Of a stretch of DNA of 64,000 bases, positions 12,530 through 61,000 are shown piece after piece (the first letter of the stretch is position 1; every line of letters begins with the position of its first letter). Both the position numbers and the translations under genes were made by a program. This DNA comes from Chitinophagales bacterium (GTDB lineage: Bacteria > Bacteroidota > Bacteroidia > Chitinophagales > JADIYW01). The DNA is taken from positions 776,680-840,679 of the forward strand of contig JACJXT010000011.1 in assembly GCA_020636535.1 (NCBI GenBank), in the 5' to 3' direction. Below the pieces are notes generated by a model. That model was not told where the DNA came from, ran no database searches, and saw only the letters and a list, made by a program, of their open reading frames with translations.

Positions 12530-12614
12530 GCTTATTTTTAGCTTGCTAAAGTTATAACTTATTTTAGATTATTTTAAAACTGTTGTATTAAGATAGTTTT
12601 AATTGGCATATTTT

Positions 12615-12988
12615 AATGAGCATAGTATAAAATTATAAACTAGATTCATTCTGAATTTATTTCAGAATCTTTTACTACATGAATATTTTCAGATTCCGAA
12701 ACGAGTTCGGAATGGAAGTGATACTAAAGCCATTTCTATAATGAGCATAGTATAAAATTATAAACTAGGTTCATTCTGAATTTATTTCAGAATCTTTTAC
12801 AACAAGAATATTTCAGATTCCGAAACGAGTTCGGAATGAGAGAAGTGATACTAAAGTCATTTCTATAATGAGCATAGTATAAAATTATAAACTAGATTCA
12901 TTCTGAATTTATTTCAGAATCTTTTACTACATGAATATTTCAGATTCCGAAACGAGTTCGGAATGGAAGTGATACTATAGCTATTTCT
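12615..12988. repeat. Tandem array of about 3 copies of a ~125-bp unit carrying two hairpins
   Basis: Unit starts at 12615, 12740 and 12867. Each unit contains attctgaa-ttta-ttcagaat and attccgaa-acgag-ttcggaat. Confidence 0.9.
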
Positions 12989-13754
12989 ATTTAGCCAAAC
13001 TAAGTATAGTTGCCACAAAATCGGTAAAATTTTCGGCATGTACCCAATGTCGTGCATTAGCAATTTCTATTAATTGTGCATTTGGAAAGTATTGTAAGCA
13101 AGCATTCCAATTATCAACTGTAATATAATCAGATAAAGCACCTTTTATAAAATAGACTTCGCTTGAAGTATCAACAGCATTTATTGTAGGAAAGTCCATG
13201 ATAATTTCATAGTCTTTTACTAGAATAGGCAAATTACATTTCCATTCAAAACCAGTACTATCTCTTTTCAAATTTTTCAAGACCAATTGTACAATGGCAT
13301 TACTTTTTATTTGTTGATGCAATTCAACTTCTATATCTTTTCGTTGATGATATTGACCAAGTTGCAAGTGTTGCATTGCATCGAGAATGATTTGATGGTC
13401 GCCTTTGTATTTTACTGGTGCAATATCTACCATAAACAATTGATGAATTAATGCTGGTTGAATTAATGCTAAATATGCAGCTGTTTTTCCACCCATTGAG
13501 TGTCCAATAATACTTGTTTTTGTAATTTGGTGTTGTTGACAAAAATCGATAATATCATTTGCCATTAACTCGTAAGACATTGAATTTGTATGTGGCGACT
13601 TACCATGATTTCTCGCATCAATTAAATAAATTGTAAACTGTTCTTCTAATGCTTTGGCTATGGTTTGAAAATTGTCTAAACTGCCTAAAAAACCGTGCAG
13701 AATAATTAAATGTTGATTACCAGAACCAAATTTTTTATAATTGAGTTGTAGCAT
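12987..13754 (-). CDS. Alpha/beta-fold hydrolase (esterase-like)
   Basis: Nucleophile elbow GHSMGG, an HG oxyanion motif (ILHGFLGS) and a C-terminal His (ARHWVH). Confidence 0.85.
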   Translation of the reverse strand: MLQLNYKKFGSGNQHLIILHGFLGSLDNFQTIAKALEEQFTIYLIDARNHGKSPHTNSMSYELMANDIIDFCQQHQITKTSIIGHSMGGKTAAYLALIQPALIHQLFMVDIAPVKYKGDHQIILDAMQHLQLGQYHQRKDIEVELHQQIKSNAIVQLVLKNLKRDSTGFEWKCNLPILVKDYEIIMDFPTINAVDTSSEVYFIKGALSDYITVDNWNACLQYFPNAQLIEIANARHWVHAENFTDFVATILSLAK

Positions 13755-14760: not shown

Positions 14761-15465
14761 TGGAGACACTTCGCTATCGCTCAGTGTGACGGTCTGTTGT
14801 TTGGGTGTGACGGTTTGCCTGCTGTGCATAAGACAATGTTGGCTCGGCACAGTGTAATGTTACTTGGGCATAGTTGTATGTCTAGCTGGAGACGCTTCGC
14901 TATTGCTCAGTGTGACTGTTTGTTGTTTGGGTGTGACGGTTTGCCTGCTGGACATAAGACAATGTTGGCTCGGCAAAGTGTAATGTTACTTGGGCATAGT
15001 TGTATGTCTAGCTGGAGACACTTCGTTATTGCTCAGTGTGACTGTTTGTTGTTTGGGTGTGACGGTTTGCCTGCTGGTCATAAGACAATGTTGGCTCGGC
15101 ACAGTATAATGTTACTTGGGCATAGTTGTATGTCTAGCTGGAGACGCTTCGCTATTGCTCAGTGTGACTGTTTGTTGTTTGGGCGTGACGGTTTGCCTTT
15201 TGGGCATAAGACAATGTTGGCTCGGCACAGTATAATGTTACTTGGGCATAGTTGTATGTCTAGCTGGAGACACTTCGCTATTGCTCAGTGTGACGGTCTG
15301 TTGTTTGGGTGTGACGGTTTGCCTGCTGGTCATAAGACAATGTTGGCTCGGCACAGTGTAATGTTACTTGGGCATAGTTGTATGTCTAGCTAGAGACATT
15401 TCGCTATCGCTCAGTGTGATGGTTTGTTGTTTGGATATAGCTTGTTGTCGGCTAGGCAATGAGGT
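14761..15465. repeat. 126-bp tandem repeat: 5 full copies plus a degenerate partial copy
   Basis: The word tggagac recurs at 14761, 14887, 15013, 15139 and 15265, and degenerately at 15391, giving an exact 126-bp period. Copies differ by a few substitutions. Confidence 0.95.
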
Positions 15466-15481
15466 ATTAAAATATAAAAAT

Positions 15482-15517
15482 GCGGAGCGGAAGCCACAAA
15501 GTGGCTTCCGCTCCGCA
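15482..15517 (-). terminator. Strong rho-independent terminator downstream of trxA
   Basis: Perfect 16-bp stem gcggagcggaagccac-aaa-gtggcttccgctccgc, with a T-rich tract on the minus strand. Confidence 0.8.
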
Positions 15518-15543
15518 AAAACAATTTTTGTTTATTAAATAAA

Positions 15544-35760: not shown

Positions 35761-35958
35761 TATAAAAACCAATATACAATTGATATTCTTAATAACATGA
35801 GTTTAGTTTAAGCGTGAATGAAAACTAGTTGATTAAATTGCTGAATAAAAATACTAAGACATAGCTTAACTAAAATAATCTATCACTGATATTTAATTCC
35901 AAATCCTGATTATCTACTTTTTTAGTTCTTTAGATTTATGCCTTTTTATATGGAATAG

Positions 35959-36171
35959 CCAATATTAGTAGCAGATATGCAAGGTATTAACTATACTACG
36001 ATTAATTTTCCTAAAAAAGGAATTTTGTTGATTGGCAATGAAGGCAATGGTGTAAAAACTGCTTTGCTTGATTTAGCACAACACATTATTACAATTCCAA
36101 AAATTGGACAAGCAGAATCGTTGAATGCAGCCATTGCTACGAGTTTAATTTGTGCCAAGATTAGGTTGTAG
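35959..36171 (+). pseudogene. Remnant of a SpoU/TrmH-family RNA 2'-O-methyltransferase (C-terminal ~65 aa only)
   Basis: GILLIGNEGNGV...IPKIGQAESLNAAIATSLI matches SpoU motifs 2-3. The frame closes with TAG at 35956 and no N-terminal portion exists upstream. Confidence 0.6.
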
Positions 36172-36363
36172 TGATTTATTATAAAACAATCTCGTTTAAA
36201 TAGCGATACTATATAATAAAGCAAATCTCGTTTAATGTGATAATAAATACATTGTATAAATACCTATATTTTGGTATTTTAAAAATAAATTTGTTAAATT
36301 ATTTTTTTACAGATACATGATATTGGTTTTCTAACATATATTTGTCAGCAAATAAATATTATG

Positions 36364-36396
36364 AAGAATCAAGAATCAAGAATCAAGAATCAAGAA
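36364..36396 (+). repeat. Heptanucleotide tract (AAGAATC)x4 plus a partial fifth unit, directly after an ATG
   Basis: Read directly: atg aagaatc aagaatc aagaatc aagaatc aagaa. Confidence 0.95.
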
Positions 36397-36457
36397 GTAT
36401 ACATTAGTAGTACTACTTTGTTTACTTGCAGTATGTAGTTGCAAAAAAGACAATGAA

Positions 36458-38074
36458 ATGTCTGTTACTCCAAATATTGCCAACGAAAACAGTGTTCACT
36501 ACGGAGCAGGTGAACAAATGATAGTTGGTGAAAAGCTACCCAATCCATTTTCCATAGAAAATATGTGGAAGGCATACTATAGTTTGGTAGAAAAAGCAAA
36601 AAGCAGTAAAGTAATGTGGATTTATCCACCAGAACCAGTAATGGAAGAAATTTTGGATGAGCCAACTAATAAATATATTAGAATTTTACCAACAGATGAA
36701 GCTGCTTATACGCAATTAAAAGAATTACAAAATGTAAATATATTCGATTTTCCTTTAGATCATGAGATGGCAGAGGGTGGTAATTATTATCATGATCCAA
36801 GTTTACCAGATACTGTTATTACTTGGCAGTATACGGTATTAAAAAATAATGAGTTTATACCTATAAGTATTGGACAGCAACAAATTTTGAATACAGATAT
36901 TTTTTTGTACGAGAATAGCCCTTATTATCCAAATTATGATGAAGCATTTTGGGAGGCATTAGAAGACGAAGCACTATTACTTACAAATGCTACTTATTAT
37001 ATGCGAACAAGCACACCCACAACTACCTTAGCGAGCAAATGGACACCAAGTGGCAGAATTATGATTAAAGATGACCAGCTTGGTTATGATGTTGGTTTAG
37101 AAGGTGCCAAAGTGATGATAAAAAAGTTTTGGAGACATGAGGCCGCTTATACCAATGCTAATGGTTATTTTACTTCGGGTAAACAATTTAGAGGCAAAGT
37201 AGATTACTCTATAAAATGGGAAAGCAACCAAGGTGCAAATGGTTGGGATATAAGAAGTGGTTGGTATGTTCAAGCATATACGGATGGACCCAATAATAAA
37301 GAAGGTAGTTGGAATAGAACATTACATGGAACAGGAAATGATGAACTAGAGATTTTTTATGGTTCCATTCATAGAGGTGTTTACGATGTTTTGGTAAAAG
37401 ACCCTTTTGGTTTGTATAAAGGATTACTGCCTCGATTAAAGATTGGAGGAATGAATAAAAATGGAACAGGCATAACATTGCATGTTACTTCTATTGTAGC
37501 AGGTCCAGATATAAGAATTTATAGAAAAGATGACAATGGTAATATTAAACCAACTTTGCAAGTATATGGAACTACTGCACATGAAGTAGGTCATTCTATA
37601 CAAAGGTCTTATGGTCCAATGAAGTTTGTAACAGGTTCTGGCTTAATAAGAGAGAGTTGGGCTAATGCTGTAGAATGGGCTTTTTGTAATTGGCGGTATA
37701 ATAATAATAATATATACACTACGAATAGTTCTATGCTTAAATGGTATTATTGCAATGATTTTCTAAATATAAAAACGGATGATGATGAAGGGTCTATATA
37801 TACACCTTTGTTTATAGATTTAATGGATAATATTCCGAACAATTCTTTATTAAAATTAGACGGAATAACAGACAGAACTTTAAATGATAATGTTGGTGGC
37901 TATACTTTAGTGCAAATAAGTAATGCTCTAAGATATAAAGGTTGGTTAACGCAACCAGATAAGGTATTAGAAGATATTGAGAACTACCTTATAGATAACT
38001 ATACCAATTCTACCGAAAACAATATAGGTACCTACTTTGATGAGTATAATACTTACAATTACCCTAATAGATAA
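36458..38074 (+). CDS. Putative zinc metallopeptidase (gluzincin-like) lipoprotein. The coordinates give the ORF as it stands; the full form probably starts at ATG 36361 when the repeat number is in frame.
   Basis: HEVGH followed 19 residues later by E (RESWANAVEW), the same spacing as the thermolysin ligands H142/H146/E166. The upstream in-frame sequence encodes the signal/lipobox LLCLLAVCSC. Confidence 0.7.
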   Translation: MSVTPNIANENSVHYGAGEQMIVGEKLPNPFSIENMWKAYYSLVEKAKSSKVMWIYPPEPVMEEILDEPTNKYIRILPTDEAAYTQLKELQNVNIFDFPLDHEMAEGGNYYHDPSLPDTVITWQYTVLKNNEFIPISIGQQQILNTDIFLYENSPYYPNYDEAFWEALEDEALLLTNATYYMRTSTPTTTLASKWTPSGRIMIKDDQLGYDVGLEGAKVMIKKFWRHEAAYTNANGYFTSGKQFRGKVDYSIKWESNQGANGWDIRSGWYVQAYTDGPNNKEGSWNRTLHGTGNDELEIFYGSIHRGVYDVLVKDPFGLYKGLLPRLKIGGMNKNGTGITLHVTSIVAGPDIRIYRKDDNGNIKPTLQVYGTTAHEVGHSIQRSYGPMKFVTGSGLIRESWANAVEWAFCNWRYNNNNIYTTNSSMLKWYYCNDFLNIKTDDDEGSIYTPLFIDLMDNIPNNSLLKLDGITDRTLNDNVGGYTLVQISNALRYKGWLTQPDKVLEDIENYLIDNYTNSTENNIGTYFDEYNTYNYPNR

Positions 38075-38086
38075 AATTTTAGAAAT

Positions 38087-38524
38087 ATGAAAAATTTAAT
38101 CATTTTATTTGTAGTATTTGTAGCTATATCTTGTAAAACAATTTATCCCATACCGAATGAAAGAATAGTTGGCTTTTTTAATAATACCAATAAGGTATTA
38201 TTGTTTAAGTTCTACGATTTGGATGGTTATACAGATAGTTTGACATTTACTTTACAGCCAAATACTGAAATATATCCTGCAGCATTTAATGATAGAGAAC
38301 CATCTGATTTATTACAAGATTCTTTGTATTTAATGTATGATAATACAAAACACCAAATATTTCTAAAATCAGACACTAATTATAATAGCACTAATAGAAA
38401 TGTTTTTTTTACTGATTCCATAAGTTATAAGCGAGAAGATATATTTCAAGGAAAGAATTATCTTTATAAATACACCTACACATTTACCGAAGCAGATTAT
38501 GCAGCAGCAGATTCTATTCCTTAA
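38087..38524 (+). CDS. Small lipoprotein, paralog 1 of 4, ending in TEADYAAADSIP
   Basis: Signal peptide plus lipobox (VAISC). It starts 13 nt after the metallopeptidase stop and carries the shared C-terminal dodecapeptide. Confidence 0.75.
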   Translation: MKNLIILFVVFVAISCKTIYPIPNERIVGFFNNTNKVLLFKFYDLDGYTDSLTFTLQPNTEIYPAAFNDREPSDLLQDSLYLMYDNTKHQIFLKSDTNYNSTNRNVFFTDSISYKREDIFQGKNYLYKYTYTFTEADYAAADSIP

Positions 38525-38549
38525 AATAATTTAATTGGCTAATTAAAAT

Positions 38550-38615
38550 CCAACAGAGAATAATATTGAAACTTATTTTGATGAGTATAGTGATTATAAT
38601 TACCCAAATAGATAA
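38550..38615 (+). pseudogene. Relic copy of the last ~21 codons plus stop of the metallopeptidase gene
   Basis: The stretch tccaacagagaataatattgaaacttattttgatgagtatagtgattataattacccaaatagataa encodes PTENNIETYFDEYSDYNYPNR*. Gene 36458..38074 ends STENNIGTYFDEYNTYNYPNR*. Confidence 0.8.
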
Positions 38616-38626
38616 AGCTAATAAAT

Positions 38627-39055
38627 ATGAAAAATTCAATAATTTTATTTTTAGTTCTTATAATAACATCTTGTGTTAAAGATAAAAATTATACAGATAT
38701 TTATAAATTTAGAAATGAAAGCACTACACTAGTAACTGTTGCCTTATTTAATAATGGTATTCTAAATGATTCATTTTCTCTACAAAATGGAAGAGATACT
38801 GTTTTAGAAGAAGTAAGTAGCATTGGTGGCGGTATACCAAGATTTATTGATGAAAGTGATAGTATCATAATAGTTTTTAATGATATGAAAAAGGTAGTTT
38901 TTTACAAAGATATTTTAAATAATAGGAACATTTTTTTCTCTTCAGCAAATATATATGATATTGAAGTGCAAAGCAATAATAAAAAAGATAAAACTACAAT
39001 ATACACTTATACATTTACCGAAGCAGATTATGCAGCAGCAGATAGTATACCTTAA
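38627..39055 (+). CDS. Small lipoprotein, paralog 2 of 4, ending in TEADYAAADSIP
   Basis: Signal peptide plus lipobox (ITSC). The core is divergent and the last 17 aa are identical to paralog 1. Confidence 0.75.
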   Translation: MKNSIILFLVLIITSCVKDKNYTDIYKFRNESTTLVTVALFNNGILNDSFSLQNGRDTVLEEVSSIGGGIPRFIDESDSIIIVFNDMKKVVFYKDILNNRNIFFSSANIYDIEVQSNNKKDKTTIYTYTFTEADYAAADSIP

Positions 39056-39100
39056 AATAATTTGTATATTTATCAATTATTTAATTGACTAATTATAACT

Positions 39101-39529
39101 ATGAAAACAATATTTTATTTAGTGCTAGCAGTATTCTTGATAATAGCTTGTGAAGAGCCAACAGATACAGGTTATAGTTCAATTTATCATATATATGAAA
39201 ATAAAAGTTCTGTACCTATAACAATCTCATACAAAAATGGTAGTGAAACTGCTTTGGTCTTTTATATTGACAATAATAAAGAAGAAGTTTTTTTTGTTAG
39301 AAAAGGCATGTTAGAAAATTTAGCATTTATTGATACTGCATATATTTATTTTAATAATGAAAAACAGTTGGTATATTCAAAAAGCAATATTACGAATGAA
39401 AGTAGAAGCATTTTTAATGAACAAAATAATTTTACCAAAGAAACTATTACCATTAACGGAAAAGAAGAAACAGCATATAGGTATATCATCACCGAAGCAG
39501 ATTACGCAGCAGCAGATAGTATACCTTAA
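39101..39529 (+). CDS. Small lipoprotein, paralog 3 of 4, ending in TEADYAAADSIP
   Basis: Signal peptide plus lipobox (IIAC). Its N-terminal ~40 aa and C-terminal ~45 aa match paralog 4 almost exactly, while the core is divergent. Confidence 0.75.
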   Translation: MKTIFYLVLAVFLIIACEEPTDTGYSSIYHIYENKSSVPITISYKNGSETALVFYIDNNKEEVFFVRKGMLENLAFIDTAYIYFNNEKQLVYSKSNITNESRSIFNEQNNFTKETITINGKEETAYRYIITEADYAAADSIP

Positions 39530-39575
39530 TAATAATTTGTAAATTTATCAATTATTTAATTGACTAATTATAACT

Positions 39576-40007
39576 ATGAAAACAATATTTTATTTAGTGC
39601 TAGCAGTATTCTTGATAATAGCTTGTGAAGAGCCAACAGATACAGGTTATAGTTCAATTTATCATATATACGAAAATAAAAGTTCTGTTCCTATAGTGAT
39701 ATTATACAAAAATAATAATGGTTCTTTCTTGGATATTGATATTGCTAACAATGAAGAAAAAGAGTATTTAGCAATAAAAGGTATGATTGTTTATATTGCA
39801 TTTGATACTGCTTATATTTACTTTAATAATGAAAAGCAATTAGTATATAATGCTTATAATAGCAATGGTACAAATGGGAATAGAAGTATTTTTGATGAGC
39901 AAAATAATTTTACAAAAGAAACCATTACCATTAACGGAAAAGAAGAAACAGCATATCGATATATTATTACCGAAGCAGATTATGCAGCAGCAGATAGTAT
40001 ACCTTAA
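39576..40007 (+). CDS. Small lipoprotein, paralog 4 of 4, ending in TEADYAAADSIP
   Basis: Same features as paralog 3. The start is offset by 475 bp from paralog 3. Confidence 0.75.
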   Translation: MKTIFYLVLAVFLIIACEEPTDTGYSSIYHIYENKSSVPIVILYKNNNGSFLDIDIANNEEKEYLAIKGMIVYIAFDTAYIYFNNEKQLVYNAYNSNGTNGNRSIFDEQNNFTKETITINGKEETAYRYIITEADYAAADSIP

Positions 40008-48756: not shown

Positions 48757-49079
48757 ATAAAATATTTAATTGCAAATATAAAAATTTGAATTTGTAGTTG
48801 GATTAAGTTGGTATTAATGAAAAAGGTAGTGCATTATGATATTATAATAATTATGTTTTAGTAAAACAATAATATGATTTATTTTGGACTAGAATATTTT
48901 CTTTTAACTATTAGCAACTATTTTTTACAAATTTTCATCTTTAATAATATTAATAGTTCTTTTTGTTTGTGTGTTTTATTCATATTATATTTATTTTACA
49001 TATAATAGGAATATTTTTCTTATCTAAAGATAACAAAACTAACTTTTTCTTTAACTAATTTTAACCAATAATTAATATT

Positions 49080-52000
49080 ATGAAGCGAACAATACTAATT
49101 ACACTTTTGTTTACTCTACTCTATTTTTCAGTAAACGCTCAATCTCCAGGCGGAGTAAATGATAGTTTAAAGGCATGGTATAAGGCAGATGCAGGTGTTC
49201 AAAATACAAGTGTAAATGCTACAAATGGTCAAACCGTTGATGCTTGGTTAAATCAAGCTGGTTCTTATAATTTAGCACAACCAACAACAACTAAACAGCC
49301 TGTTTTTTATAGTACAGCAGCTAATCAGCTAATCAACTATAATCCATCATTGCGTTTTGATGGTACAGACGATTGTATAGGAAATGCTACAAGATTAATG
49401 CCTAAAGATTCTAGCTATGCTTTTTTTATAGTTGCATTAGACAGTGCAACAGATGTTGGTTATAATGCATTTTTTAGCTCACACACAGTATTGGATTATT
49501 TTTCTTTATATAAGAATAATGACAATTTAACTGATAACTCAATAACACCTTATGGTATTGTAGGTAGCGGAGATAGAGGCACATTTGGAAAAGGAACATC
49601 TTATGGTATTTCTACTGGTGCTTATTGGAATGGAACTAATTTTACAAGAGATGAAAAAGTGCAAAAAGCACAAACACAAATTGTAGGGATGCGTTCTGCA
49701 AACAAATTAGCAACAGATACCATGTTCACTTATACAGATGGCTATAAAAGTGCACCTATTCCATTTTGGTCTTATATAAATCAAAATGCTGCATCTACTG
49801 GTCGCGATTATCATTTTGGGGCTTTTGTAGTCGGAGCAGATGCAACCTCACCAGCCAATTCTGCAGAACATTGGGTAGGCAATATTGCAGAAGTTATTGC
49901 TTATGATAGAAACATTACAGATGCAGAAGCTAATAAAATTCAATCTTACCTTGCAATTAAATATGGTATCACACTAGGTCAAGGCAATGGCTTCATCAAT
50001 CAAAATGGTAATAATTTTAATTATGTAGCCAGTAATGGAACTGTAATTTGGGATGGAACAGCAAATACTACTTATGCTTATGATATTTTTGGTATAGGTC
50101 AAGATAATACTGCTGGTTTAAATCAAAAACAGTCTAAAAGTATAAATGGTGGTTTCCAACCTGCTATTAGCTTAAATGATGGATTGGCTACAAGTAATAC
50201 TACCAACACAAATATATTTGCAGCAGACAATAGCTTTCTTGTTGCAGGTCACAATGGTGCAGATGTAGATTTTACCAACATGTACACACCAATTACGTTT
50301 TCTTCTACCACACCTATTTATATATTAGATAGAGTATGGAAAGTACAAGAAACAGGAACTGTGGGTACTGTTACTGTTTCTTTTCCTACTACAACGGCAT
50401 CTACGGCTACATCTACTTACCTTGTAATTAATAATGTAGCTACATTTGGTGCTGGAACTACAGAAATCTTAATGACAAGTGATGGTAATGGTAATCTTAC
50501 TGCACAATATGATTTTCAAGATGGAGACTATTTTACTATTGTTCAACCATTATTTGCACCTGGTTGTGTGTCTGCCAATTTACTCGCGTGGTATAAAGCA
50601 GATGCAGGTGTTGTAGGTGGTCCAGTAAGTACATGGGAAGATCAAACAGTTCCAGCTTATAATTTGCAACAGCCAACAGCAGGTAGCAGACCAACTACAG
50701 GTGCTTTAATGAATTTTAATCCAACACTTACTTTCGATGCCAATTATTATTTAACTTACCAAGCAGGTCGTTTTATAAGTACAACTTCACCAGGTACGGT
50801 ATTTGGTGCTGCTAATAACAATATAGATGCTGGTGGCTATGAAAACTTAGCAGACTTAGGAATTGATAATCCACACATGGGTATTCAAAATAGTACAATG
50901 ATGATGTACATGAATGGAAGTTCGCCAATACAAGTAAATCATGCTAATACCATTACAAAAGATATTAATCAAGTATACGGATGGTCATGGAATGGTGGAT
51001 CAAACGCAGGTAGTCAATTAAGGTTAGATGGAATATTAAATGATTTTCCAACAACAGATTTTACTCTTGTAGGAAATGGAGGTGTTTCAGATGGTATGTT
51101 TTCAGTAGGTTCTTATCAAGGTGTGGAAATTTGGAATGGAGATATAGCAGAAGTTATATTATATGATAGAAATTTAACAGAAGAAGAGAAACAAAGAGTA
51201 GAAACTTATATGGCACTTCGCTATGGTACAACTTTATCTCACAACTATTTGTCAGGTAAAAGTGATACCATATGGTATACAGGTGGTGGATACGATAATA
51301 ATATAGCAGGTATAGGTCGAGAAGATTGTCAATTACTACTACAAAAACAATCACAATCCACCAATACTACAAATGTTATAACTATATATAATGGTGACCA
51401 AACTGCTGGTTTACCAACAGATAATGTTTCTAATACAAGTGCCTTTAGTACAAATGAAAGTTTCATGGTTTGGGGAGATAACGGAAGTTCCACAAGTTAT
51501 GGTGTGTCTTATAGTCCAAATACATTCTCAAATAGTTCTTTCTATCATATGAGTAGAATTTGGAATGTACAAGAAACAGGAACTGTAGGAACAGTTACTA
51601 TTAAAGCTCCTGCTAATGCAGAATATTTACTAGTACATAATAGTGCAGATTTCTCAACAGGTACACCAACAGAAATTCCTCTAGTAGATGATGGTAATGG
51701 TAATTTATTGGCTACTGTAGATTTAACCGATGGTCAATACTTTACCTTTGGAGCAGCTGTTACTGGTCCAGGTTGTGTAACTGCTAACTTATTAGCATGG
51801 TATAAAGCAGATGCAGGTGTTATAGGAAATCCAGTAAGCTCATGGGAAGATCAAACACTTACGCCATATAATCTATCTCAAACAACTGTAGGAAGTCGTC
51901 CTACAGCAGATAGTTTAATGAATTTTAATCCAACATTGACTTTTGATGCTTTAAAATATTTAACTTATCAATCAACACGATTTATTACCACAACATCTTC

Positions 52001-55000
52001 AGGTACAGTATTCGGTGCAGCTAATAATAATATAGATAACGGAGGTTACGAAAATCTAGCAGTATTAGGAATAGATAATCCACACATGGGAATCTTAAAT
52101 AATCAAATGATGCTTTGGATGAATGGTAGTTCTCCAAATCCAACATATCATAGTAATTCAATTAAAAAAGATATTAATCAAGTATATGGATGGGCTTGGA
52201 ATGGAGGAACAAATGGTGGTAGCCAAATGCGATTAGATGGAACATTAAATGACTTTGCCAATACAGACTTTACACTAGTAGGAAATGGTGGTGTTTCAGA
52301 TGGTATGTTTTCAGTAGGTTCTTATCAAGGTGTGGAAATTTGGAATGGAGATATAGCAGAAGTAATCTTATATGATAGAAATTTAACGGAATTAGAAAAA
52401 CAGCGTGTAGAAACTTACTTAGCTATTCGCTATGGTACAACTTTATCACACAATTATTTATCAGGTAAAGGAGATACTATTTGGTTAGTAGGTAGTGGAT
52501 ATGACAATAATATAGCAGGTATAGGTCGAGAAGATTGTCAATCATTATTACAAAAACAATCACAATCTACCAATACTACAAATGTTATTACTATTTATAA
52601 TGATAATCAAACTGCTGGTTTACCAACAGATAATGCTTCAAATACAAGTACTTTTACAGATGAAAGTTTTATGATTTGGGGCGATAATGGAGCTGCTGCA
52701 ACTTATGGCGTAAATTATACACTAAATTCATTCTCAGGTATTTGTATTTATCACATGAATAGAATTTGGAATGTACAAGAAACAGGAAGCGTAGGAACTG
52801 TAACTGTTCAAGCACCAGCCAATGCTCAATATTTATTGGTACACAATAGTGATGATTTCTCAACTGGTACACCAACAGAGATTCCTTTGGTAGATGATGG
52901 TAATGGTAACTTATTAGCTACAGTAGATTTTACCGATGGTCAATTCTTTACTTTTGCAGGAACGGTATATGCTCCAGGTGGAGTAGGTGGAAACTTGGCG
53001 GCTTGGTACAAAGCCAATGATATTAACTACGAGAATAATGGAGATACCATAGGTCTTTGGAAAAATAGCGTTAGTGGAAGTACTTACAATGTAGCAACAA
53101 CTACTGCAACATACAAGCCAATATTTTATAACACAACAGCAAATAAATTAGTCAACAATAATCCATCTATAGAATTTGATGGAACTGATGATCGTTTAGA
53201 AAATACAACTAGATTATTTCCTAGCACAGATGGTTTTGAGATGTTGGCTGTTGGTGTACAACAAAAAGCAAAAAACTCTCCTAGTGAAATCTTAGGAATG
53301 GGAGGTGGAAATATTCCTGCTTTTGGTATGAATGACTATTCTACTTCAGGTTGGTTACCTTATATGGCTGGTGGAGGTGCTGGTTGGTATGGATCTAATG
53401 CAATACTATATAATGGTTTTGCAGGCGGTAATAATCAGCAAGCACAAATTTATAGTATGTCCACTCCAAATGGAGGTGCTGCAAATAATATATTCTCAAA
53501 TGTTGATGGATATAGAGAACAAACTGATTTAGTTGCAAATGGAGTTACTAATACTAGCATAGGTGATGGAGTAGATGTTGGGAATACAGGAGGAGAGTAT
53601 TTTAAAGGTCTCGTTAATGAAGTTATTATATACAACAGAAAATTAGATTCGGTAGAATTACTAAAAGTAAACTCTTATCTCGCCATTAAATATGGTATTA
53701 CTTTAGATCAAAGACAAATCAACGATTATATAGCAAGTAATGGAACTTCGCTTTATGCTGCTTCTACTTATGGAGCTTACGACCACGACATTGCAGGTAT
53801 TGGTATCGATTCTTGTTCTAGTTTAATACAATTAAAATCAACTAGTGCTAACGAGGATGCAGTAGTAACTATGACTGCAGATACAGCTAATGTTACTAAC
53901 TTTGAGTTTCTTCTTTGGGCAAACAATGATTCAGCATTAACTTTAAATACAACAAACTTACCAACTATAGATTTACTATGTCCAAGTCGTCTCGAAAGAA
54001 TTTGGCATACACAAGAAACTGGAGATGTAGGTTTGGTAGATTTAGATTTTAATCTCAATAAACTACCATACAAAAGTTCATTATCAGATTGGAAATTATT
54101 AATTAGAAATGGAGATGATGATATGAGTGGAGCAACAGTATCAACCATAATACCAATTTTATTAAATGATTCAACAGTAAGATTTGAAGATGTTTCACTC
54201 TCTAATGATGATTATTTTACACTAGCAGGAAACTCAATAGGTCCAGGTGGTGTGCTTTCAAATCTCGTAGCATGGTACAAAGCAGGAGAAAATGTTTTAG
54301 ATGCTAGCAATAATCAAATAACTACAAATGGTGGTTCAGTGTCAACATGGAAAGATGCCATAGGAAAAAGAAATTTAACCAATCATCCAACTCAAGGAGT
54401 CAATAAACCAACATTAATGTTGAACGACTCATTGATGAACAATAATCCTGCTCTTTATTTTGCATACTATCCAGGTTCAGTTTCAAGAATATTATATAAC
54501 TCAACTAGATACTTTGACAATACTAGTGCTTTCCAATTAATAAGTGTAGCCAAAGATTTAGATGCTCCTGCTAATGTATTCCGTTTAAAAGGTTTTATGG
54601 GAATGGGTAGCACAGGTGATTATCCAACATTCGATTTTAATGGTGCTACTGCTCCAGATAATTCAACTGGAAATTATTGGACACCATATTTGGGTGGCTC
54701 TTCTCCATTCGGAGATTATAATTCTAGTTTTATTACATATAATGGAACCAATGGAGGTACAAATCAACAATCTCAAATATTTGGATCCTCATCTTTAAAT
54801 ACAGTAGGTGGAACAAATAATGTAAATAGTCAAGTTGATGGATATAGTGCAATGATGCAATTAGATGCAGCTCAGCAAGCACAACTCGGAAATCAACTAT
54901 ATGTTGGTAATAGTGGTGGATTACTAGAGGAAGATTGGCATGGTCTCGTAGGTGAAATTTTAATTTACGATAGAGTACTTACAGCAGCAGAACAACTAAA

Positions 55001-58000
55001 AGTAAACTCTTATCTCGCAATTAAATATGGTATTACTTTAGATCAAAGACAATATAATGATTATACAGCAAGTGATGGTACAGTAGTATATGCTGCTTCT
55101 ACTTATGGAGCTTACAATCACGATATTGCAGGTATTGGCGTTGATACTTGTTCTGGCTTAATTCAAAAACAATCAAAAAGTGTAAATATTGGTTTCCAAC
55201 CTGCAGTCAGCTTAAATGATGGTTTAGCAACTTCAAATAGTGCTAATATGAATTCATTTGATGCAAATAATAGTTATTGGGTTGCTGGTCACAATGGTCA
55301 AGATACTACATTTACAGAAGCATATACTTCCCAAACACTTGCTACACTTAGTTGTATGAAAATTATGGATAGAAAATGGAAAGTAGAAGAAACAGGATCT
55401 ATTGGAAATGTTACCATTACTATTCCAGATATCACTACAGCAACAATAACAGCTATTTATTTGGTAATTGATAGTACTGGAAACAATGATGATTTTACGG
55501 CTAATACTACAGAAATATTAATGACTGATGCAGGTGCTGGATTATTGTCTGCTCAGTACGATTTTGTCGATGGTCAATACTATTCGTTTGCTTATGTATT
55601 AGCACCAATTGATACTTTTGAAATAGCAGACACTATCTGTGCAACTTCAACTTATCTATTCAATGAACAAGAATTAAATACAAGTGGTGTCTACTTAGAT
55701 ACTATTCCAAGAATAGGTAATTGCGATAGTATAGTGAGATTAACACTTACCGTAGTACCACAAGACACATTCGACATAGCAGATACTATTTGCTCCAATG
55801 AAACATATACATTTGGTGCATTAACACTGAATACCACAGGCGTTTACTTAGATACAATAGAACGACCAACAGAAGTATGCGATAGCATAGTACGATTAAC
55901 ACTTACCGTAATACCACAAGACACATTCGACATAGTAGATACTATTTGTGCAACAACAACTGATTATACATTTGGAGGATTAGTATTAACCGAGTCAGGA
56001 ATTTACTTAGATACAATAGCACGACCAACAGAATACTGCGATAGTATAGTAAGATTAACACTTACCGTAGTACCACAAGACACCTTTGAAATATCAGCTT
56101 CAATCTGCACAGGTCAAACATACAGTTTTGGAGGAATGTCACTCAATGCCACAGGCGTATACTTAGACACTATATTACAACCAACTAAACCATGCGATAG
56201 CATAGTACGATTAACTTTAACAGTAGTAGATAAAGATACATTTGACATAGTAGATACCATTTGTTCAATCGAATCGTATAGCTTCGATGGTATGTTATTG
56301 AATATCACAGGCGTTTACTTTAAAACAGTAACTCGTCCAATGTCATGCGACAGTATCGTACGATTAACCTTAACAGTAATCCAACAAGACACAACAGACA
56401 TAAGTGCAACAATATGTTCAAACGAGAACTATAGTTTCGATGGAATGTCACTCAATACCACAGGCGTATACTTAGCTACAATAGCACGACCAACGGAAGT
56501 ATGCGATAGTATAGTGAGATTAACACTTACCGTAGTACCACAAGACACATTCGACATAGCAGATACTATTTGCTCCAATGAAACATATACATTTGGTGCA
56601 TTAACACTGAATACCACAGGCGTTTATTTAGATACAATAGAACGACCAACAGAAGTATGCGATAGCATAGTACGATTAACACTTACCGTAATACCACAAG
56701 ACACATTCGACATAGCAGATACTATTTGTGCAACAACAACTGATTATACATTTGGTGGATTAGTATTAACCGAGTCAGGAATTTACTTAGATACAATAGC
56801 ACGACCAACAGAATACTGCGATAGTATAGTAAGATTAACACTTACCGTAGTACCACAAGACACCTTTGAAATATCAGCTTCAATCTGCACAGGTCAAACA
56901 TACAGTTTTGGAGGAATGTCACTCAATGCCACAGGCGTATACTTAGACACTATATTACAACCAACTAAACCATGCGATAGCATAGTACGATTAACTTTAA
57001 CAGTAGTAGATAAAGATACATTTGACATAGTAGATACCATTTGTTCAATCGAATCGTATAGCTTCGATGGTATGTTATTGAATATCACAGGCGTTTACTT
57101 TAAAACAGTAACTCGTCCAATGTCATGCGACAGTATCGTACGATTAACCTTAACAGTAATCCAACAAGACACAACAGACATAAGTGCAACAATATGTTCA
57201 AACGAGAACTATAGTTTCGATGGAATGTCACTCAATACCACAGGCGTATACTTAGCTACAATAGCACGACCAACGGAAGTATGCGATAGTATAGTGAGAT
57301 TAACACTTACCGTAGTACCACAAGACACATTCGACATAGCAGATACTATTTGCTCCAATGAAACATATACATTTGGTGCATTAACACTGAATACCACAGG
57401 CGTTTATTTAGATACAATAGAACGACCAACAGAAGTATGCGATAGCATAGTACGATTAACACTTACCGTAATACCACAAGACACATTCGACATAGCAGAT
57501 ACTATTTGTGCAACAACAACTGATTATACATTTGGTGGATTAGTATTAACCGAGTCAGGAATTTACTTAGATACAATAGCACGACCAACAGAATACTGCG
57601 ATAGTATAGTAAGATTAACACTTACCGTAGTACCACAAGACACCTTTGAAATATCAGCTTCAATCTGCACAGGTCAAACATACAGTTTTGGAGGAATGTC
57701 ACTCAATGCCACAGGCGTATACTTAGACACTATATTACAACCAACTAAACCATGCGATAGCATAGTACGATTAACTTTAACAGTAGTAGATAAAGATACA
57801 TTTGACATAGTAGATACCATTTGTTCAATCGAATCGTATAGCTTCGATGGTATGTTATTGAATATCACAGGCGTTTACTTTAAAACAGTAACTCGTCCAA
57901 TGTCATGCGACAGTATCGTACGATTAACCTTAACAGTAATCCAACAAGACACAACAGACATAAGTGCAACAATATGTTCAAACGAGAACTATAGTTTCGA

Positions 58001-61000
58001 TGGAATGTCACTCAATACCACAGGCGTATACTTAGCTACAATAGCACGACCAACGGAAGTATGCGATAGTATAGTGAGATTAACACTTACCGTAGTACCA
58101 CAAGACACATTCGACATAGCAGATACTATTTGCTCCAATGAAACATATACATTTGGTGCATTAACACTGAATACCACAGGCGTTTATTTAGATACAATAG
58201 AACGACCAACAGAAGTATGCGATAGCATAGTACGATTAACACTTACCGTAATACCACAAGACACATTCGACATATCAGATACCATTTGTGCAACAACAAC
58301 TGATTATACATTTGGTGGATTAGTATTAACCGAGTCAGGTATTTACTTAGATACAATAGCACGACCAACAGAATACTGCGATAGTATAGTAAGATTAACA
58401 CTTACCGTAGTACCACAAGACACCTTTGAAATAGCAGCTTCAATCTGCACAGGTCAAACATACAGTTTTGGAGGAATGTCACTCAATGCCACAGGCGTAT
58501 ACTTAGACACTATATTACAACCAACTAAACCATGCGATAGTATAGTTCGATTAACGCTTATTGTAGATGATTATATTAGAAATACAGAAAATGTAACATT
58601 ATGTTATGGCGATAGTATAATAATGTGTACGGGTAATGTATATAAAACAGCCGGAGCTTATAATGATACTTGTAAAACTACAGCTGGTTGTGATAGCATT
58701 ACTACTACAATTATTACTTTAGATGTATGTAGTAAAGATACTGTACCAGTAATAGATGTTTGTGATACATGTACAACAACAGTATGTTTAGATACTATCT
58801 ATGATATTACTAATGGACATTGGACATTATGCGATGGTAGTCAAACAGCAACATCTAGCTTAGGAAGCTACACTATAGATAGCACTACAGGATGCATTAC
58901 TTATACTGCAAATGGAGCAATAGGTAGAGATACACTTTGTATATTAATTTGTGATTCAGCACAAACTGTTTGTGATTCTCAAACAGTAGTAGTAGCTATA
59001 ATACCAAGTACAGAAACAATTACAGATACAATAGAAATTGGTACAACAGATAGTATATGTGTAGCAATAGAAGATGGTATGACACCAGACAATGTAACGA
59101 TTGTAGCATGCGATGGAGGAACACTAGACAATATCACAACACCAACATATACTATTAATGGCAACTGCGTAATGGTAACTTACACAGGGACAAATATTGG
59201 AACAGATGAAGTATGTGTAATCATCTGCGATACCGACTTAGACATCTGCGACACGAACAGAGTTGTAATCACAGTAACAACACAAGACACAGTACCAATT
59301 ATAGAAGTACCATGCGATACCTGTACAGTAACCGTATGTTTAGATACGATCTACGATATCAATAATGGTGTATGGACACTTTGCGACGGAACACAACAAA
59401 CCACTACAGCAATGGGTACTTATGGTATAGACCAAACTTCAGGTTGTGTAACTTATACAGGAAACGGAATCGTAGGACGAGATACACTATGTATAGTAGT
59501 TTGTGATGCAACACAAACAACTTGCGATACCATTAAACCAGTAGTAGTAGTTTTACCAACTAACGATACTATAACAGACAGTATAGCAATAGGTGTAACT
59601 GATAGCATTTGCGTACCAATAGAAGATGGTATGACACCAGACAATGTAACGATTGTAGCATGCGATGGAGGAACACTAGACAATATCACAACACCAACAT
59701 ATACTATTAATGGCAACTGTGTAATGGTAACTTACACAGGGACAAATATTGGAACAGATGAAGTATGTGTAATCATCTGCGATACCGACTTAGACATCTG
59801 CGACACGAACAGAGTTGTAATCACAGTAACAACACAAGACACAGTACCAATTATAGAAGTACCATGCGATACCTGTACAGTAACCGTATGTTTAGATACG
59901 ATCTACGATATCAATAATGGTGTATGGACACTTTGCGATGGAACACAACAAACCACTACAGCAATGGGTACTTATGGTATAGACCAAACTTCAGGTTGTG
60001 TAACTTATACAGGAAACGGAATCGTAGGACGAGATACACTATGTATAGTAGTTTGTGATGCAACACAAACAACTTGCGATACCATTAAACCAGTAGTAGT
60101 AGTTTTACCAACTAACGATACTATAACAGACAGTATAGCAATAGGTGTAACTGATAGCATTTGCGTACCAATAGAAGATGGTATGACACCAGACAATGTA
60201 ACGATTGTAGCATGCGATGGAGGAACACTAGACAATATCACAACACCAACATATACTATTAATGGCAACTGTGTAATGGTAACTTACACAGGAACAAATA
60301 TTGGAACAGATGAAGTATGTGTAATCATCTGCGATACCGACTTAGACATGTGCGACACGAACAGAATTGTAATCACAGTAACAACACAAGACACAGTACC
60401 AATAATAGAAGTACCATGCGATACCTGTACAGTAACCGTATGTTTAGATACGATCTACGATATCAATAATGGCGTATGGACACTTTGCGATGGAACACAA
60501 CAAACCACTACAGCAATGGGTACTTATGGTATAGACCAAACTACAGGTTGTGTAACTTATACAGGAAACGGAATTGTAGGACGAGATACACTATGTATAG
60601 TAGTTTGTGATGCCACTCTAAGCACATGCGATACAATTCATCCAGTAGTGGTTGTTTTACCTACAACAGAAACAATTACAGATACTATAAAAGTTGGTGC
60701 AACAGACAGTATTTGCATTCCAATAGAAAATGGCATGACAGCAGATTATGCAACCATAGTAATGTGTAATGGAACGCTTGATAATATTACATTACCAGTA
60801 GTAACATCAGTAAGTGCAACATGTGTAACTATTACATATACAGGTACTAGCATTGGTACAGATGATTTCTGTGTAGTTGTTTGTGATGTAGATTTAGCAA
60901 TGTGCGATACAACAAAAGTATCAATCACAGTAATAGCAAAAGATACAATACCAGTAATAGAAGTCTGCGACACTTGTACCGAAACGGTATGTTTAGATAC

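What the first reader, a model, noticed from the sequence alone, without database searches (positions are those of the whole stretch)
36361..36460. Heptanucleotide (AAGAATC)n tract uncouples the start codon from the lipoprotein signal peptide: a likely phase-variation switch, currently OFF
The ATG at 36361 is followed directly by four full AAGAATC units (36364-36391) plus a partial fifth unit. In the ATG frame, translation stops at TAG 36436-36438 after 25 codons. The long ORF listed from 36458 lies in a different frame. Read upstream of 36458, that frame encodes ...RIKKYTLVVLLCLLAVCSCKKDNE, a hydrophobic signal with a lipobox cysteine. It contains no ATG, GTG or TTG and is closed by TGA at 36362. 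The distance 36458-36361 is 97 nt. Losing one 7-nt unit makes it 90 nt and gives MKNQESRIKKYTLVVLLCLLAVCSCKK... fused to the whole 538-aa protein. Gaining two units also restores the frame. This geometry matches slipped-strand translational phase variation as known in Neisseria, Haemophilus and Campylobacter surface genes. As sequenced, the gene would yield nothing, or at most a signal-less product from 36458. A direct repeat aatctcgtttaa (36188-36199 and 36224-36235) lies upstream and may be regulatory.
Basis: partly seen in the sequence, partly recalled or inferred. Interest (0 to 1): 0.85.

Follow-up and report, generated by a model that had tools for sequence, protein, structure and literature searches.

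The report
Repeat-driven on/off switch in protease gene
A run of four 7-base repeats right after the start codon knocks a surface-anchored protease gene out of frame, and relatives of this gene in other uncultured Bacteroidota carry similar repeats at the same spot that differ in copy number between samples, so this is very likely a reversible genetic on/off switch caught in the OFF state.

Summary
ATG 36361 is followed by a perfect (AAGAATC)x4.7 tract. The ATG frame stops after 25 codons. The lipoprotein signal peptide and the 538-codon body lie in the +1 frame with no start codon of their own.

The interpretation, slipped-strand phase variation currently OFF, is strongly supported by comparison, but tract variation was not observed for this tract itself because only one genome of this lineage exists in the searched collections.

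Key evidence:
- Nearly all homologues start with the same M-K-K...S-C-K-K-[DE] lipoprotein leader.
- At least seven other lineages of this family carry non-triplet repeats (4, 7 or 8 nt, different sequences) directly after ATG-AAx. All have intact ORFs of 547-634 codons that keep HExxH.
- Such repeats are enriched at this gene's 5' end (P about 9e-5).
- In two lineages, contigs otherwise identical over kilobases differ only in unit number: 2 vs 3 (OFF vs ON) and 4 vs 5.

The switched gene encodes an unannotated thermolysin-like zinc metalloprotease lipoprotein. It is always followed by a small partner lipoprotein gene. Assembly error and simple pseudogene decay are unlikely. The mechanism is classical; the gene family and the environmental Bacteroidota setting are new.

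The parts
36337..36344 (+). TATATTTG, a match to the Bacteroidota -7 promoter motif TAnnTTTG, 24 nt upstream of the start codon
   Evidence: Other genes in the window that have the motif carry it 23-32 nt upstream of their ATG. Promoter function is inferred, not shown.
36361..36363 (+). Native start codon ATG of the lipoprotein gene
   Evidence: Homologous loci have ATG-AAx directly before their repeats.
36364..36396 (+). Heptanucleotide tract (AAGAATC)x4 plus AAGAA. This is the proposed slipped-strand switch. Gene ON at n=0, 3, 6 and OFF at n=1, 2, 4, 5, 7; n=4 here.
36361..36438 (+). OFF-state product: a 25-codon ORF (MKNQESRIKNQEVYISSTTLFTCSM) ending at TAG 36436-36438
36392..36442 (+). Signal peptide with lipobox in the +1 frame: KKYTLVVLLCLLAVCSC (candidate lipidated Cys at 36440-36442)
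   Evidence: It is homologous to the N-termini of family members. The lipobox Cys column is at least 90% conserved in the family alignment.
36443..36457 (+). KKDNE after the Cys: resembles the Bacteroidota lipoprotein surface-export signal K-(D/E)2 (partial match)
   Evidence: The signal is as defined in PMC5080379. Surface exposure is inferred.
36458..38074 (+). The 538-codon ORF as annotated in the source MAG (H6553_03890). It is the mature body of a thermolysin-like zinc metalloprotease and lacks its leader as annotated.
   Evidence: P0001, 100% identity. AF2 model pLDDT 87.6. Best PDB matches are thermolysin and vibriolysin.
37580..37654 (+). Catalytic motif HEVGH (37580-37594) and the invariant Glu 20 residues after the second His (37652-37654)
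   Evidence: H375, E376, H379, E399 and S400 are invariant in 54 family members.
38087..38524 (+). Small partner lipoprotein gene (145 aa), 12 nt after the protease stop. A partner is present downstream of the protease gene in every homologous locus where the downstream gene calls were inspected.
38627..40007 (+). Three further paralogues of the small lipoprotein (38627-39055, 39101-39529, 39576-40007). The last two form a 475-nt tandem duplication.
36188..36235 (+). Two exact copies of AATCTCGTTTAA (36188-36199, 36224-36235) in the upstream intergenic region; function unknown
   Evidence: only two exact copies in the window.

Best explanation
The locus is a simple-sequence contingency locus, that is, a translational phase-variation switch. 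A gene for a lipoprotein thermolysin-like zinc metalloprotease, probably surface-exposed, starts at ATG 36361. A perfect heptanucleotide tract lies between the start codon and the Lys-Lys that begins the signal peptide. Seven is not divisible by three, so each gain or loss of a unit by slipped-strand mispairing during replication shifts the leader and the whole enzyme relative to the ATG. With 0, 3 or 6 units a full precursor is made; the extra KNQESRI residues sit in the n-region of the signal peptide and are removed with it, so the mature protein would not change. With 4 units, as assembled, ribosomes stop after 25 codons and no exported enzyme is made. Loss of one unit would switch it ON. 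Shown here: the anatomy, the frames, homology of the hidden leader, recurrence of the architecture in the family, and natural unit-number polymorphism in two homologous lineages. Inferred: that this particular tract varies, its switching rate, the protease activity, surface exposure, and any polar effect on the downstream partner gene.
For: Anatomy and frames. Hidden leader is the family's real N-terminus. ATG 36361 has a -7 box at the modal distance. Recurrence at the same site in other lineages, all out of frame as assembled, with both +1 and +2 offsets, ORFs of 547-634 codons and HExxH kept: L124 (CTTCCCA)x8.4; L122/L123 (CAGCCCA)x2; L130 (ATCAAACG)x3.9; L178 (CAAACCAC)x4.9; L161 (AAAACAC)x4.7; L173 (AAAC)x10.2; L153 (TCTA)x4.5. 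L129 (AAGAACC)x4.7 or more is cut by the contig end. Enrichment: 4 of the 9 perfect non-triplet repeats in 214 kb of 54 non-redundant family loci lie in the 120 nt around this gene's start, binomial P=9.3e-5. No triplet-unit repeat was seen in any leader. Direct polymorphism: L222 has 3 units (a 557-aa full precursor, P0124) and L122/L123 have 2 units (frameshifted), with 0 mismatches in 1,326 nt upstream and 3,676 nt downstream. L224 has 5 units of AAAACAC and five other contigs have 4, with 0 mismatches in 2,473 nt downstream. The gene is not decaying: it keeps all 11 invariant family residues and the nearly invariant residues of the mature part. The assembly looks accurate: a 4,196-codon ORF is intact and ten adjacent ORFs are complete, separate genes.
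Against: There is no second sample of this lineage, so length variation of this tract was not observed. Four units is at the short end for phase-variable tracts, so switching may be slow. A remnant of a SpoU/TrmH gene lies just upstream, so some gene decay does occur in this genome. Ten of the eleven tract states seen across lineages are OFF (P about 0.08 under a one-third ON expectation, and part of the sample was chosen for truncated gene calls), which could also fit frequent inactivation. No expression, rate or phenotype data exist.
Confidence: 0.8

Rival explanations
1. Fixed pseudogene: a one-off slippage added a unit and killed the gene. The tract does not switch at a biologically useful rate, and the gene is on its way to decay.
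For: Only four units. A single genome. A SpoU/TrmH remnant lies directly upstream. The genome is small and AT-rich (2.1 Mb contig, 31% GC), which would be compatible with genome reduction. Most repeat-bearing relatives are OFF.
Against: The 569-codon frame has no other lesion and keeps all invariant catalytic and structural residues. Eight independent OFF alleles in the family all have intact ORFs. An equally short four-unit heptamer at the same position is polymorphic in nature, and a 2/3-unit tract toggles ON/OFF. A perfect 4.7-copy tract itself needs repeated slippage to arise.
Confidence: 0.12
2. Assembly or sequencing artefact: the true genome has 3 (or 6) units and the gene is simply intact.
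For: The source is a MAG and its sequencing technology is unknown to me. Repeats are classic sites of consensus errors.
Against: The tract is only 33 nt, and an error of exactly one 7-nt unit is unusual. No other frameshifted gene was found among the checked neighbours, and a 12.6-kb ORF is intact. The same out-of-frame architecture occurs in independent assemblies from NCBI, ENA, JGI, Tara and Logan. The 2-unit state was reproduced in two unrelated runs.
Confidence: 0.05
3. The gene is expressed as it stands, by programmed ribosomal frameshifting on the repeat or by initiation at a non-canonical codon (for example ATC 36389, giving (M)KKYTL...).
For: ATC-AAG-AAG-TAT at 36389 would give a family-typical leader. 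The repeat has no stop in any frame.
Against: The units do not form a known slippery site. Homologous loci need either +1 or +2 shifts and use 4-, 7- and 8-nt units, so no single recoding rule fits. No Rfam element or notable structure was found in the region. From general knowledge, ATC initiation is very inefficient. The natural 3-unit allele restores the frame conventionally.
Confidence: 0.03

Closest known systems
Neisseria opa (protein II) genes: CTCTT pentanucleotide repeats in the signal-peptide coding region (own knowledge; SSR control of phase variation in Neisseria is listed in review PMC11868660)
   Same: A non-triplet repeat lies inside the leader-peptide coding region just after the start codon. 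Unit gain or loss by slipped-strand mispairing shifts the frame of the whole protein. The repeat-encoded residues are removed with the leader, so the mature surface protein is unchanged. Translational ON/OFF switching.
   Different: The unit is 5 nt rather than 7 nt, and opa tracts are usually longer. The product is a beta-barrel adhesin, not a lipoprotein protease. The host is a pathogenic proteobacterium, not an uncultured environmental Chitinophagales. opa is a multigene family within one genome, whereas here a single gene plus partner genes is involved.
Haemophilus influenzae tetranucleotide contingency loci (lic1A CAAT, hgp CCAA) and Campylobacter poly-G genes (own knowledge; general concept in PMC11868660 and PMC3315296)
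   Same: Intragenic 5'-proximal non-triplet repeats give reversible frameshifts. Repeats are enriched at N-termini. The genes encode surface-related functions.
   Different: Unit lengths are 1 or 4 nt. Tracts are typically longer. Many such loci occur per genome, whereas only one was found in this 64-kb window.
Haemophilus influenzae hmw1A/hmw2A 7-bp repeats (own knowledge)
   Same: A heptanucleotide unit controls a surface protein.
   Different: Those repeats lie in the promoter region and grade transcription. Here the tract is inside the ORF and acts on the reading frame.
Invertible-promoter (inverton) phase variation in Bacteroides (PMC11868660)
   Same: Same phylum, and it gives stochastic ON/OFF of surface structures and outer-membrane proteins.
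   Different: That mechanism is site-specific recombination by invertases. Here there are no inverted repeats and no recombinase at the locus, and the switch is a replication-slippage tract.
Thermolysin/vibriolysin (peptidase family M4)
   Same: HExxH plus a Glu 20 residues after the second His (the spacing in thermolysin, H146/E166, is from my own knowledge). The best structural matches are 1kei and 3nqx.
   Different: No Pfam or NCBIfam model hits the protein and a PDB sequence-profile search is negative. TM-score is only about 0.5 on the target. There is an extra N-terminal region and an extra beta domain, and the protein is lipid-anchored.

Membership tests
SSR-mediated translational phase-variable (contingency) locus | Perfect tandem repeat whose unit length is not a multiple of three, inside the ORF | tested here: met
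   (AAGAATC)x4.7, 100% perfect, 36364-36396.
SSR-mediated translational phase-variable (contingency) locus | A change in unit number toggles between a full-length product and early termination | tested here: met
   In silico: n=0, 3, 6 give 561, 568 and 575 aa; n=1, 2, 4, 5, 7 give 10-32 aa.
SSR-mediated translational phase-variable (contingency) locus | Tract-length polymorphism among cells or strains of the same lineage | not testable with these tools
   No second sample of this lineage was found. In homologous loci the feature is met: 2 vs 3 units and 4 vs 5 units in otherwise identical DNA.
SSR-mediated translational phase-variable (contingency) locus | The ORF is otherwise intact, meaning it is maintained by selection despite being OFF | tested here: met
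   A 569-codon open frame. All 11 invariant family residues are present, as are the nearly invariant residues of the mature part. The same holds for seven other OFF alleles.
SSR-mediated translational phase-variable (contingency) locus | High-frequency, reversible switching with a phenotypic ON/OFF | not testable with these tools
   This needs read-level counts or a fluctuation assay.
Bacterial lipoprotein, surface-exposed Bacteroidota type | Positively charged n-region, hydrophobic h-region, and a lipobox ending in Cys | tested here: met
   KKYTLVVLLCLLAVCSC, aligned with the family leaders. No dedicated predictor was run.
Bacterial lipoprotein, surface-exposed Bacteroidota type | Lipoprotein export signal K-(D/E)2 or Q-A-(D/E)2 after the Cys (PMC5080379) | tested here: inconclusive
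   C-K-K-D-N-E is a partial match. The family consensus is C-x-K-[DE].
Thermolysin-like gluzincin (peptidase M4) | HExxH zinc-binding motif with a third ligand Glu about 20 residues downstream | tested here: met
   H375, E376, H379 and E399 are invariant in 54 sequences.
Thermolysin-like gluzincin (peptidase M4) | Match to the family's sequence profiles (Pfam Peptidase_M4 models) | tested here: not met
   No Pfam or NCBIfam hit at E<=0.01. The PDB profile search gave nothing significant. I therefore do not file it as an M4 member, only as thermolysin-like.
Thermolysin-like gluzincin (peptidase M4) | Thermolysin fold | tested here: inconclusive
   Foldseek top hit is thermolysin 1kei, E=4.6e-4, probability 1.00, TM 0.52 on the target and 0.33 on the query; vibriolysin 3nqx is third. 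The model pLDDT is 87.6.

The most novel reading that the evidence does not exclude
The protease plus small-lipoprotein module belongs to a large, unannotated Bacteroidota family (about 1,500 clusters at 50% identity with E<=1e-30). In this family 5' frame-shifting repeats of 4, 7 or 8 nt have arisen or been kept many times independently. That would make it a widespread contingency locus in free-living or loosely host-associated marine and other environmental bacteria. It would imply strong fluctuating selection on this surface enzyme, for example as a phage receptor, a target of grazers or hosts, or a costly public good. It would also show that repeat-based bet-hedging is common outside host-adapted pathogens and outside the inverton paradigm of Bacteroidota.
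Probability: 0.45. Interest if true: 0.7.

Novelty: new member of a known kind. Interest (0 to 1): 0.6.

Why it matters
Slipped-strand switches are textbook biology for pathogens such as Neisseria, Haemophilus and Campylobacter. For Bacteroidota, the 2025 review I read (PMC11868660) describes phase variation only through DNA inversion.

This locus and its relatives show a repeat-based switch in uncultured Bacteroidota from several independent public assemblies (NCBI MAGs, ENA, JGI, Tara, Logan). The switch has evolved repeatedly on one unannotated surface protease family, and natural ON and OFF alleles are visible in public assemblies.

This matters in three ways:
- It marks the family as a likely target of fluctuating selection and worth biochemical study.
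- It gives a concrete set of samples (SRR14932640 and SRR14932642; ERZ27292878 against its sister assemblies) in which switching can be quantified from reads.
- Annotation pipelines routinely mis-annotate such genes as leaderless proteins. The source record starts H6553_03890 at Met 36458, and about 15% of family representatives lack a leader.

Tried and rejected
- **Close relatives in metagenomes.** A scan with P0001 found none. The exact 538-aa product is not in the contig index, and its 90% cluster has one member. Read- or strain-level variation of this tract was therefore out of reach.
- **The tract in reference genomes.** None comes from this genome. The contexts are mixed: 5' ends, in-frame coding repeats, and intergenic hairpin arrays. 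It gave no help for this locus.
- **Family and RNA libraries.** Pfam, NCBIfam, PADLOC and PHROGs gave nothing for the protease or for the two small lipoprotein paralogues tested, apart from one marginal PADLOC hit that I treat as chance. Rfam gave nothing in the leader region or anywhere in the window. There are no tRNAs.
- **Sigma-70 scan.** The promoter and terminator scan is uninformative in this AT-rich Bacteroidota DNA: 36 hits against 33 expected.
- **Partner structure.** A model of the small partner lipoprotein built from four window paralogues had pLDDT 49.6, too poor to search with.
- **Negative controls.** Two truncated gene calls had ordinary causes: P0011 has an upstream GTG start, and P0102 has an in-frame ATG that the gene call skipped.
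- **Other mechanisms.** An inverted partner of the heptamer array, as seen in Acidobacteria loci, is absent here. Programmed frameshifting was rejected because relatives need different shifts and use different unit lengths.
Full report
**1. The observation**

The window reads ATG (36361-36363), then four complete AAGAATC units (36364-36391), then AAGAA. Tandem Repeats Finder reports 36364-36396, period 7, 4.7 copies, 100% matches.

- The ATG frame gives MKNQESRIKNQEVYISSTTLFTCSM and stops at TAG 36436-36438.
- The frame of the long ORF, read upstream from 36458, is *RIKNQESRIKKYTLVVLLCLLAVCSCKKDNEM. It is closed by TGA at 36362 and has no ATG, GTG or TTG before 36458.
- The tract is not a chance feature. 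No shuffle reaches the observed matches. None of 200 Markov simulations of the window has a heptamer of four or more copies, and it is the only non-triplet repeat of four or more copies in 64 kb.

**2. What the gene is**

The 538-aa ORF is identical to 'MAG: hypothetical protein H6553_03890 [Chitinophagales bacterium]' on a 2.15-Mb contig. The window has 31% G+C.

- No Pfam, NCBIfam, PADLOC or PHROGs model matches the protein.
- The family is nevertheless large: 1,526 representatives of 50%-identity clusters at E<=1e-30 and 3,339 at E<=0.001.
- In an alignment of 54 members, H375, E376, H379, E399 and S400 are invariant. This is HEVGH at 37580-37594, with the Glu 20 residues after the second His. 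From my own knowledge, that spacing is the thermolysin arrangement.
- An AlphaFold model is confident (pLDDT 87.6, pTM 0.90). Its best solved-structure match is thermolysin (E 4.6e-4, TM 0.52 on the target), with vibriolysin third.

I call it a thermolysin-like gluzincin. I do not file it in family M4, because the sequence profiles do not match.

Almost all homologues begin with a lipoprotein leader, M-K-K...hydrophobic...S-C-K-K-[DE], and the Cys column is at least 90% conserved. The residues after the Cys (C-K-K-D-N-E here) resemble, but only partly match, the Bacteroidota surface-export signal K-(D/E)2 (PMC5080379).

The gene is followed 12 nt later by a 145-aa lipoprotein gene and three paralogues of it. 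A small partner gene of 134-155 aa follows the protease gene in every homologous locus where I inspected the downstream gene calls.

**3. Where the gene really starts**

The hidden leader in the +1 frame is homologous to the family's N-termini, so the protein does not naturally start at Met 36458. ATG 36361 is the native start for three reasons:

- A match to the Bacteroidota -7 promoter motif TAnnTTTG lies 24 nt upstream (36337-36344). Other genes in the window that carry this motif have it at 23-32 nt.
- Deleting the tract gives ATG-AAG-AAG-TAT, that is MKKYTL..., the family-typical start.
- Homologous loci place their repeats directly after ATG-AAx.

So the tract is an insertion between Met and the Lys-Lys of the signal peptide's n-region. 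In silico, n=0, 3 and 6 give precursors of 561, 568 and 575 aa, while n=1, 2, 4, 5 and 7 give peptides of 10-32 aa. The assembled state, n=4, is OFF. Loss of one unit would turn it ON.

**4. Comparative evidence**

This is the decisive part. Several homologues had been called without their leader, like P0001, so I fetched their DNA. I then surveyed 80 further family loci from metagenomes, a set not selected for truncation. Non-triplet perfect repeats sit directly after the start codon in the following lineages:

| Locus | Repeat | Note |
|---|---|---|
| L124 | (CTTCCCA)x8.4 | SpoU/TrmH gene end just upstream, as in the window, so probably a positional orthologue |
| L122 / L123 | (CAGCCCA)x2 | |
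| L130 | (ATCAAACG)x3.9 | |
| L178 | (CAAACCAC)x4.9 | |
| L161 | (AAAACAC)x4.7 | |
| L173 | (AAAC)x10.2 | |
| L153 | (TCTA)x4.5 | |
| L129 | (AAGAACC)x4.7 or more, then AAGAAG | one base different from the window's arrangement; cut by the contig end |
| L166 | (CTTA)x7.2 | lies just upstream of the ATG instead |

In all eight loci where both the ATG and the leader are visible (the window and the first seven rows):

- the leader is out of frame with the ATG;
- both +1 and +2 offsets occur;
- the ORF is intact over 547-634 codons, with HExxH kept.

In 54 non-redundant loci (214 kb) there are nine perfect non-triplet repeats of three or more copies, and four of them fall in the 120 nt around this gene's start (binomial P = 9.3e-5). 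No triplet-unit repeat was found in any leader. That argues against mere tolerance of insertions in the n-region and for selection of frame-shifting units.

The repeat-bearing members are scattered in the family. The window's nearest relatives (P0002 and P0003, about 50% identity) have none. Two sister pairs (68% and 61% identity) share the repeat's position and unit length but have diverged in unit sequence.

**5. Direct polymorphism**

- The cluster of the frameshifted P0008 contains a 557-aa member, P0124, that starts MKQPTAHSPLLLAICLV... and is 515/515 identical over the rest. At the DNA level, contig L222 (SRR14932640) has three CAGCCCA units, while L122 (SRR14932642) and L123 (SRR22752046) have two. 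L122 and L222 show no mismatch in 1,326 nt upstream or 3,676 nt downstream. These are ON and OFF alleles of one strain.
- In the AAAACAC lineage, L224 has five units and five other contigs have four, again with no mismatch over 2,473 nt downstream. That tract is a four-unit heptamer directly after ATG, the same size as the one in the window. So a tract this short is unstable enough to be polymorphic in nature.

**6. Rival explanations**

- *Assembly error.* This is unlikely. The tract is 33 nt, a 4,196-codon ORF is intact, and ten adjacent ORFs are complete, separate genes. The same architecture appears in independent assemblies from five sources.
- *Fixed pseudogene.* This cannot be excluded for this one genome. 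A SpoU/TrmH remnant lies directly upstream and only four units are present. Against it, the ORF keeps every conserved residue, and eight OFF alleles across the family are all otherwise intact.
- *Programmed frameshifting or non-canonical initiation.* This does not fit the mixture of unit lengths and frame offsets, and no RNA element was found.

Ten of the eleven tract states seen are OFF. That is not significant, given how part of the sample was chosen, but it suggests that expression is usually disfavoured, as is common for contingency genes.

**7. Comparison with known systems and verdict**

The closest known design is that of the Neisseria opa genes: a non-triplet repeat inside the leader-peptide coding region, translational ON/OFF, and an unchanged mature protein (own knowledge; see also PMC11868660).

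The mechanism is therefore classical. What is new:

- the gene family, an unannotated thermolysin-like lipoprotein with a partner lipoprotein;
- the repeated evolution of the switch within that family;
- the setting. In the review I read, Bacteroides phase variation is described only through invertases, and my literature searches found no report of this family or of repeat switches in Chitinophagales.

I rate it a new member of a known kind, with 0.8 confidence in the switch reading for this locus and an interest of 0.6.

Noticed in passing
L004, L022, L083, L089, L118, L120 (e.g. L089 about 2253-2344 minus strand; L120 about 3200-3286 minus strand): In G+C-rich genomes (64-65% G+C for most of these loci, 59% for L118; the Vicinamibacterales MAG SMAG_U4494 alone has at least six contigs) the AT-rich AAGAATC tract is the 3' arm of an inverted pair of heptamer arrays, (GATTCNT)n ... 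(ANGAATC)n. These form hairpin-like elements just upstream of long ORFs. Each unit contains a GANTC site. This is not the same thing as the window locus.
   Followed up: partly
window 35977-36171 (+): Only the C-terminal ~65 residues of a SpoU/TrmH-type methyltransferase are present (…IPKIGQAESLNAAIATSLICAKIRL*). The region 35761-35960 upstream is closed in all frames, so this is a gene remnant. The same gene end lies upstream of the homologous protease gene in L124, which indicates conserved gene order.
   Followed up: partly
window 12614-12990: Intergenic tandem array of 127 nt x 3.0 (93% identity). Each unit contains two short hairpins. No Rfam family matches.
   Followed up: no
window 14761-15434: Tandem array of 126 nt x 5.3 (94% identity) that looks much more G+C-rich than the 31% G+C window. 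A strong terminator-like hairpin follows at about 15483-15518. No Rfam match.
   Followed up: no
window 38087-40007 (+): Four paralogous small lipoproteins of 142-145 aa share an invariant C-terminal motif, TEADYAAADSIP. The last two form a 475-nt tandem duplication. A homologous partner gene follows the protease gene in the related loci I inspected. Function unknown; the AF2 model was unusable.
   Followed up: partly
window 36188-36199 and 36224-36235: An exact 12-nt direct repeat, AATCTCGTTTAA, spaced 36 nt apart in the intergenic region upstream of the switch gene. There are no other exact copies in the window. Its role is unknown.
   Followed up: partly
L166 1349-1377: In one family member a (CTTA)x7.2 tract lies 13-42 nt upstream of the ATG rather than inside the ORF. 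It may be a promoter- or leader-length switch.
   Followed up: no
L133 about 1455-1470; L183 about 1390-1400: Two other family loci carry single-base frameshifts in or just after the leader (in CCCTCCTC and in a T6 run) relative to sister contigs or the expected frame. These could be natural variants or assembly errors.
   Followed up: no
L122/L222 (3887-4304 minus strand) and L130 (1-1090 minus strand): Neighbours of repeat-bearing homologues include a SET-domain protein and a very large WD40-repeat protein. These are eukaryote-like domains that may hint at a host-associated lifestyle for these lineages.
   Followed up: no
window 49065-61655 (+): A single 4,196-codon ORF with about 18 internal repeats of 156 nt (55722-58560), probably a giant surface or adhesin-like protein. 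I used it here only as evidence of assembly accuracy.
   Followed up: no
window 36458 (annotation of H6553_03890): The public annotation starts the protein at Met 36458 without its leader. About 15% (20 of 131) of the family representatives returned by the profile search likewise lack a lipoprotein leader. Some of these may be further phase-OFF alleles.
   Followed up: partly
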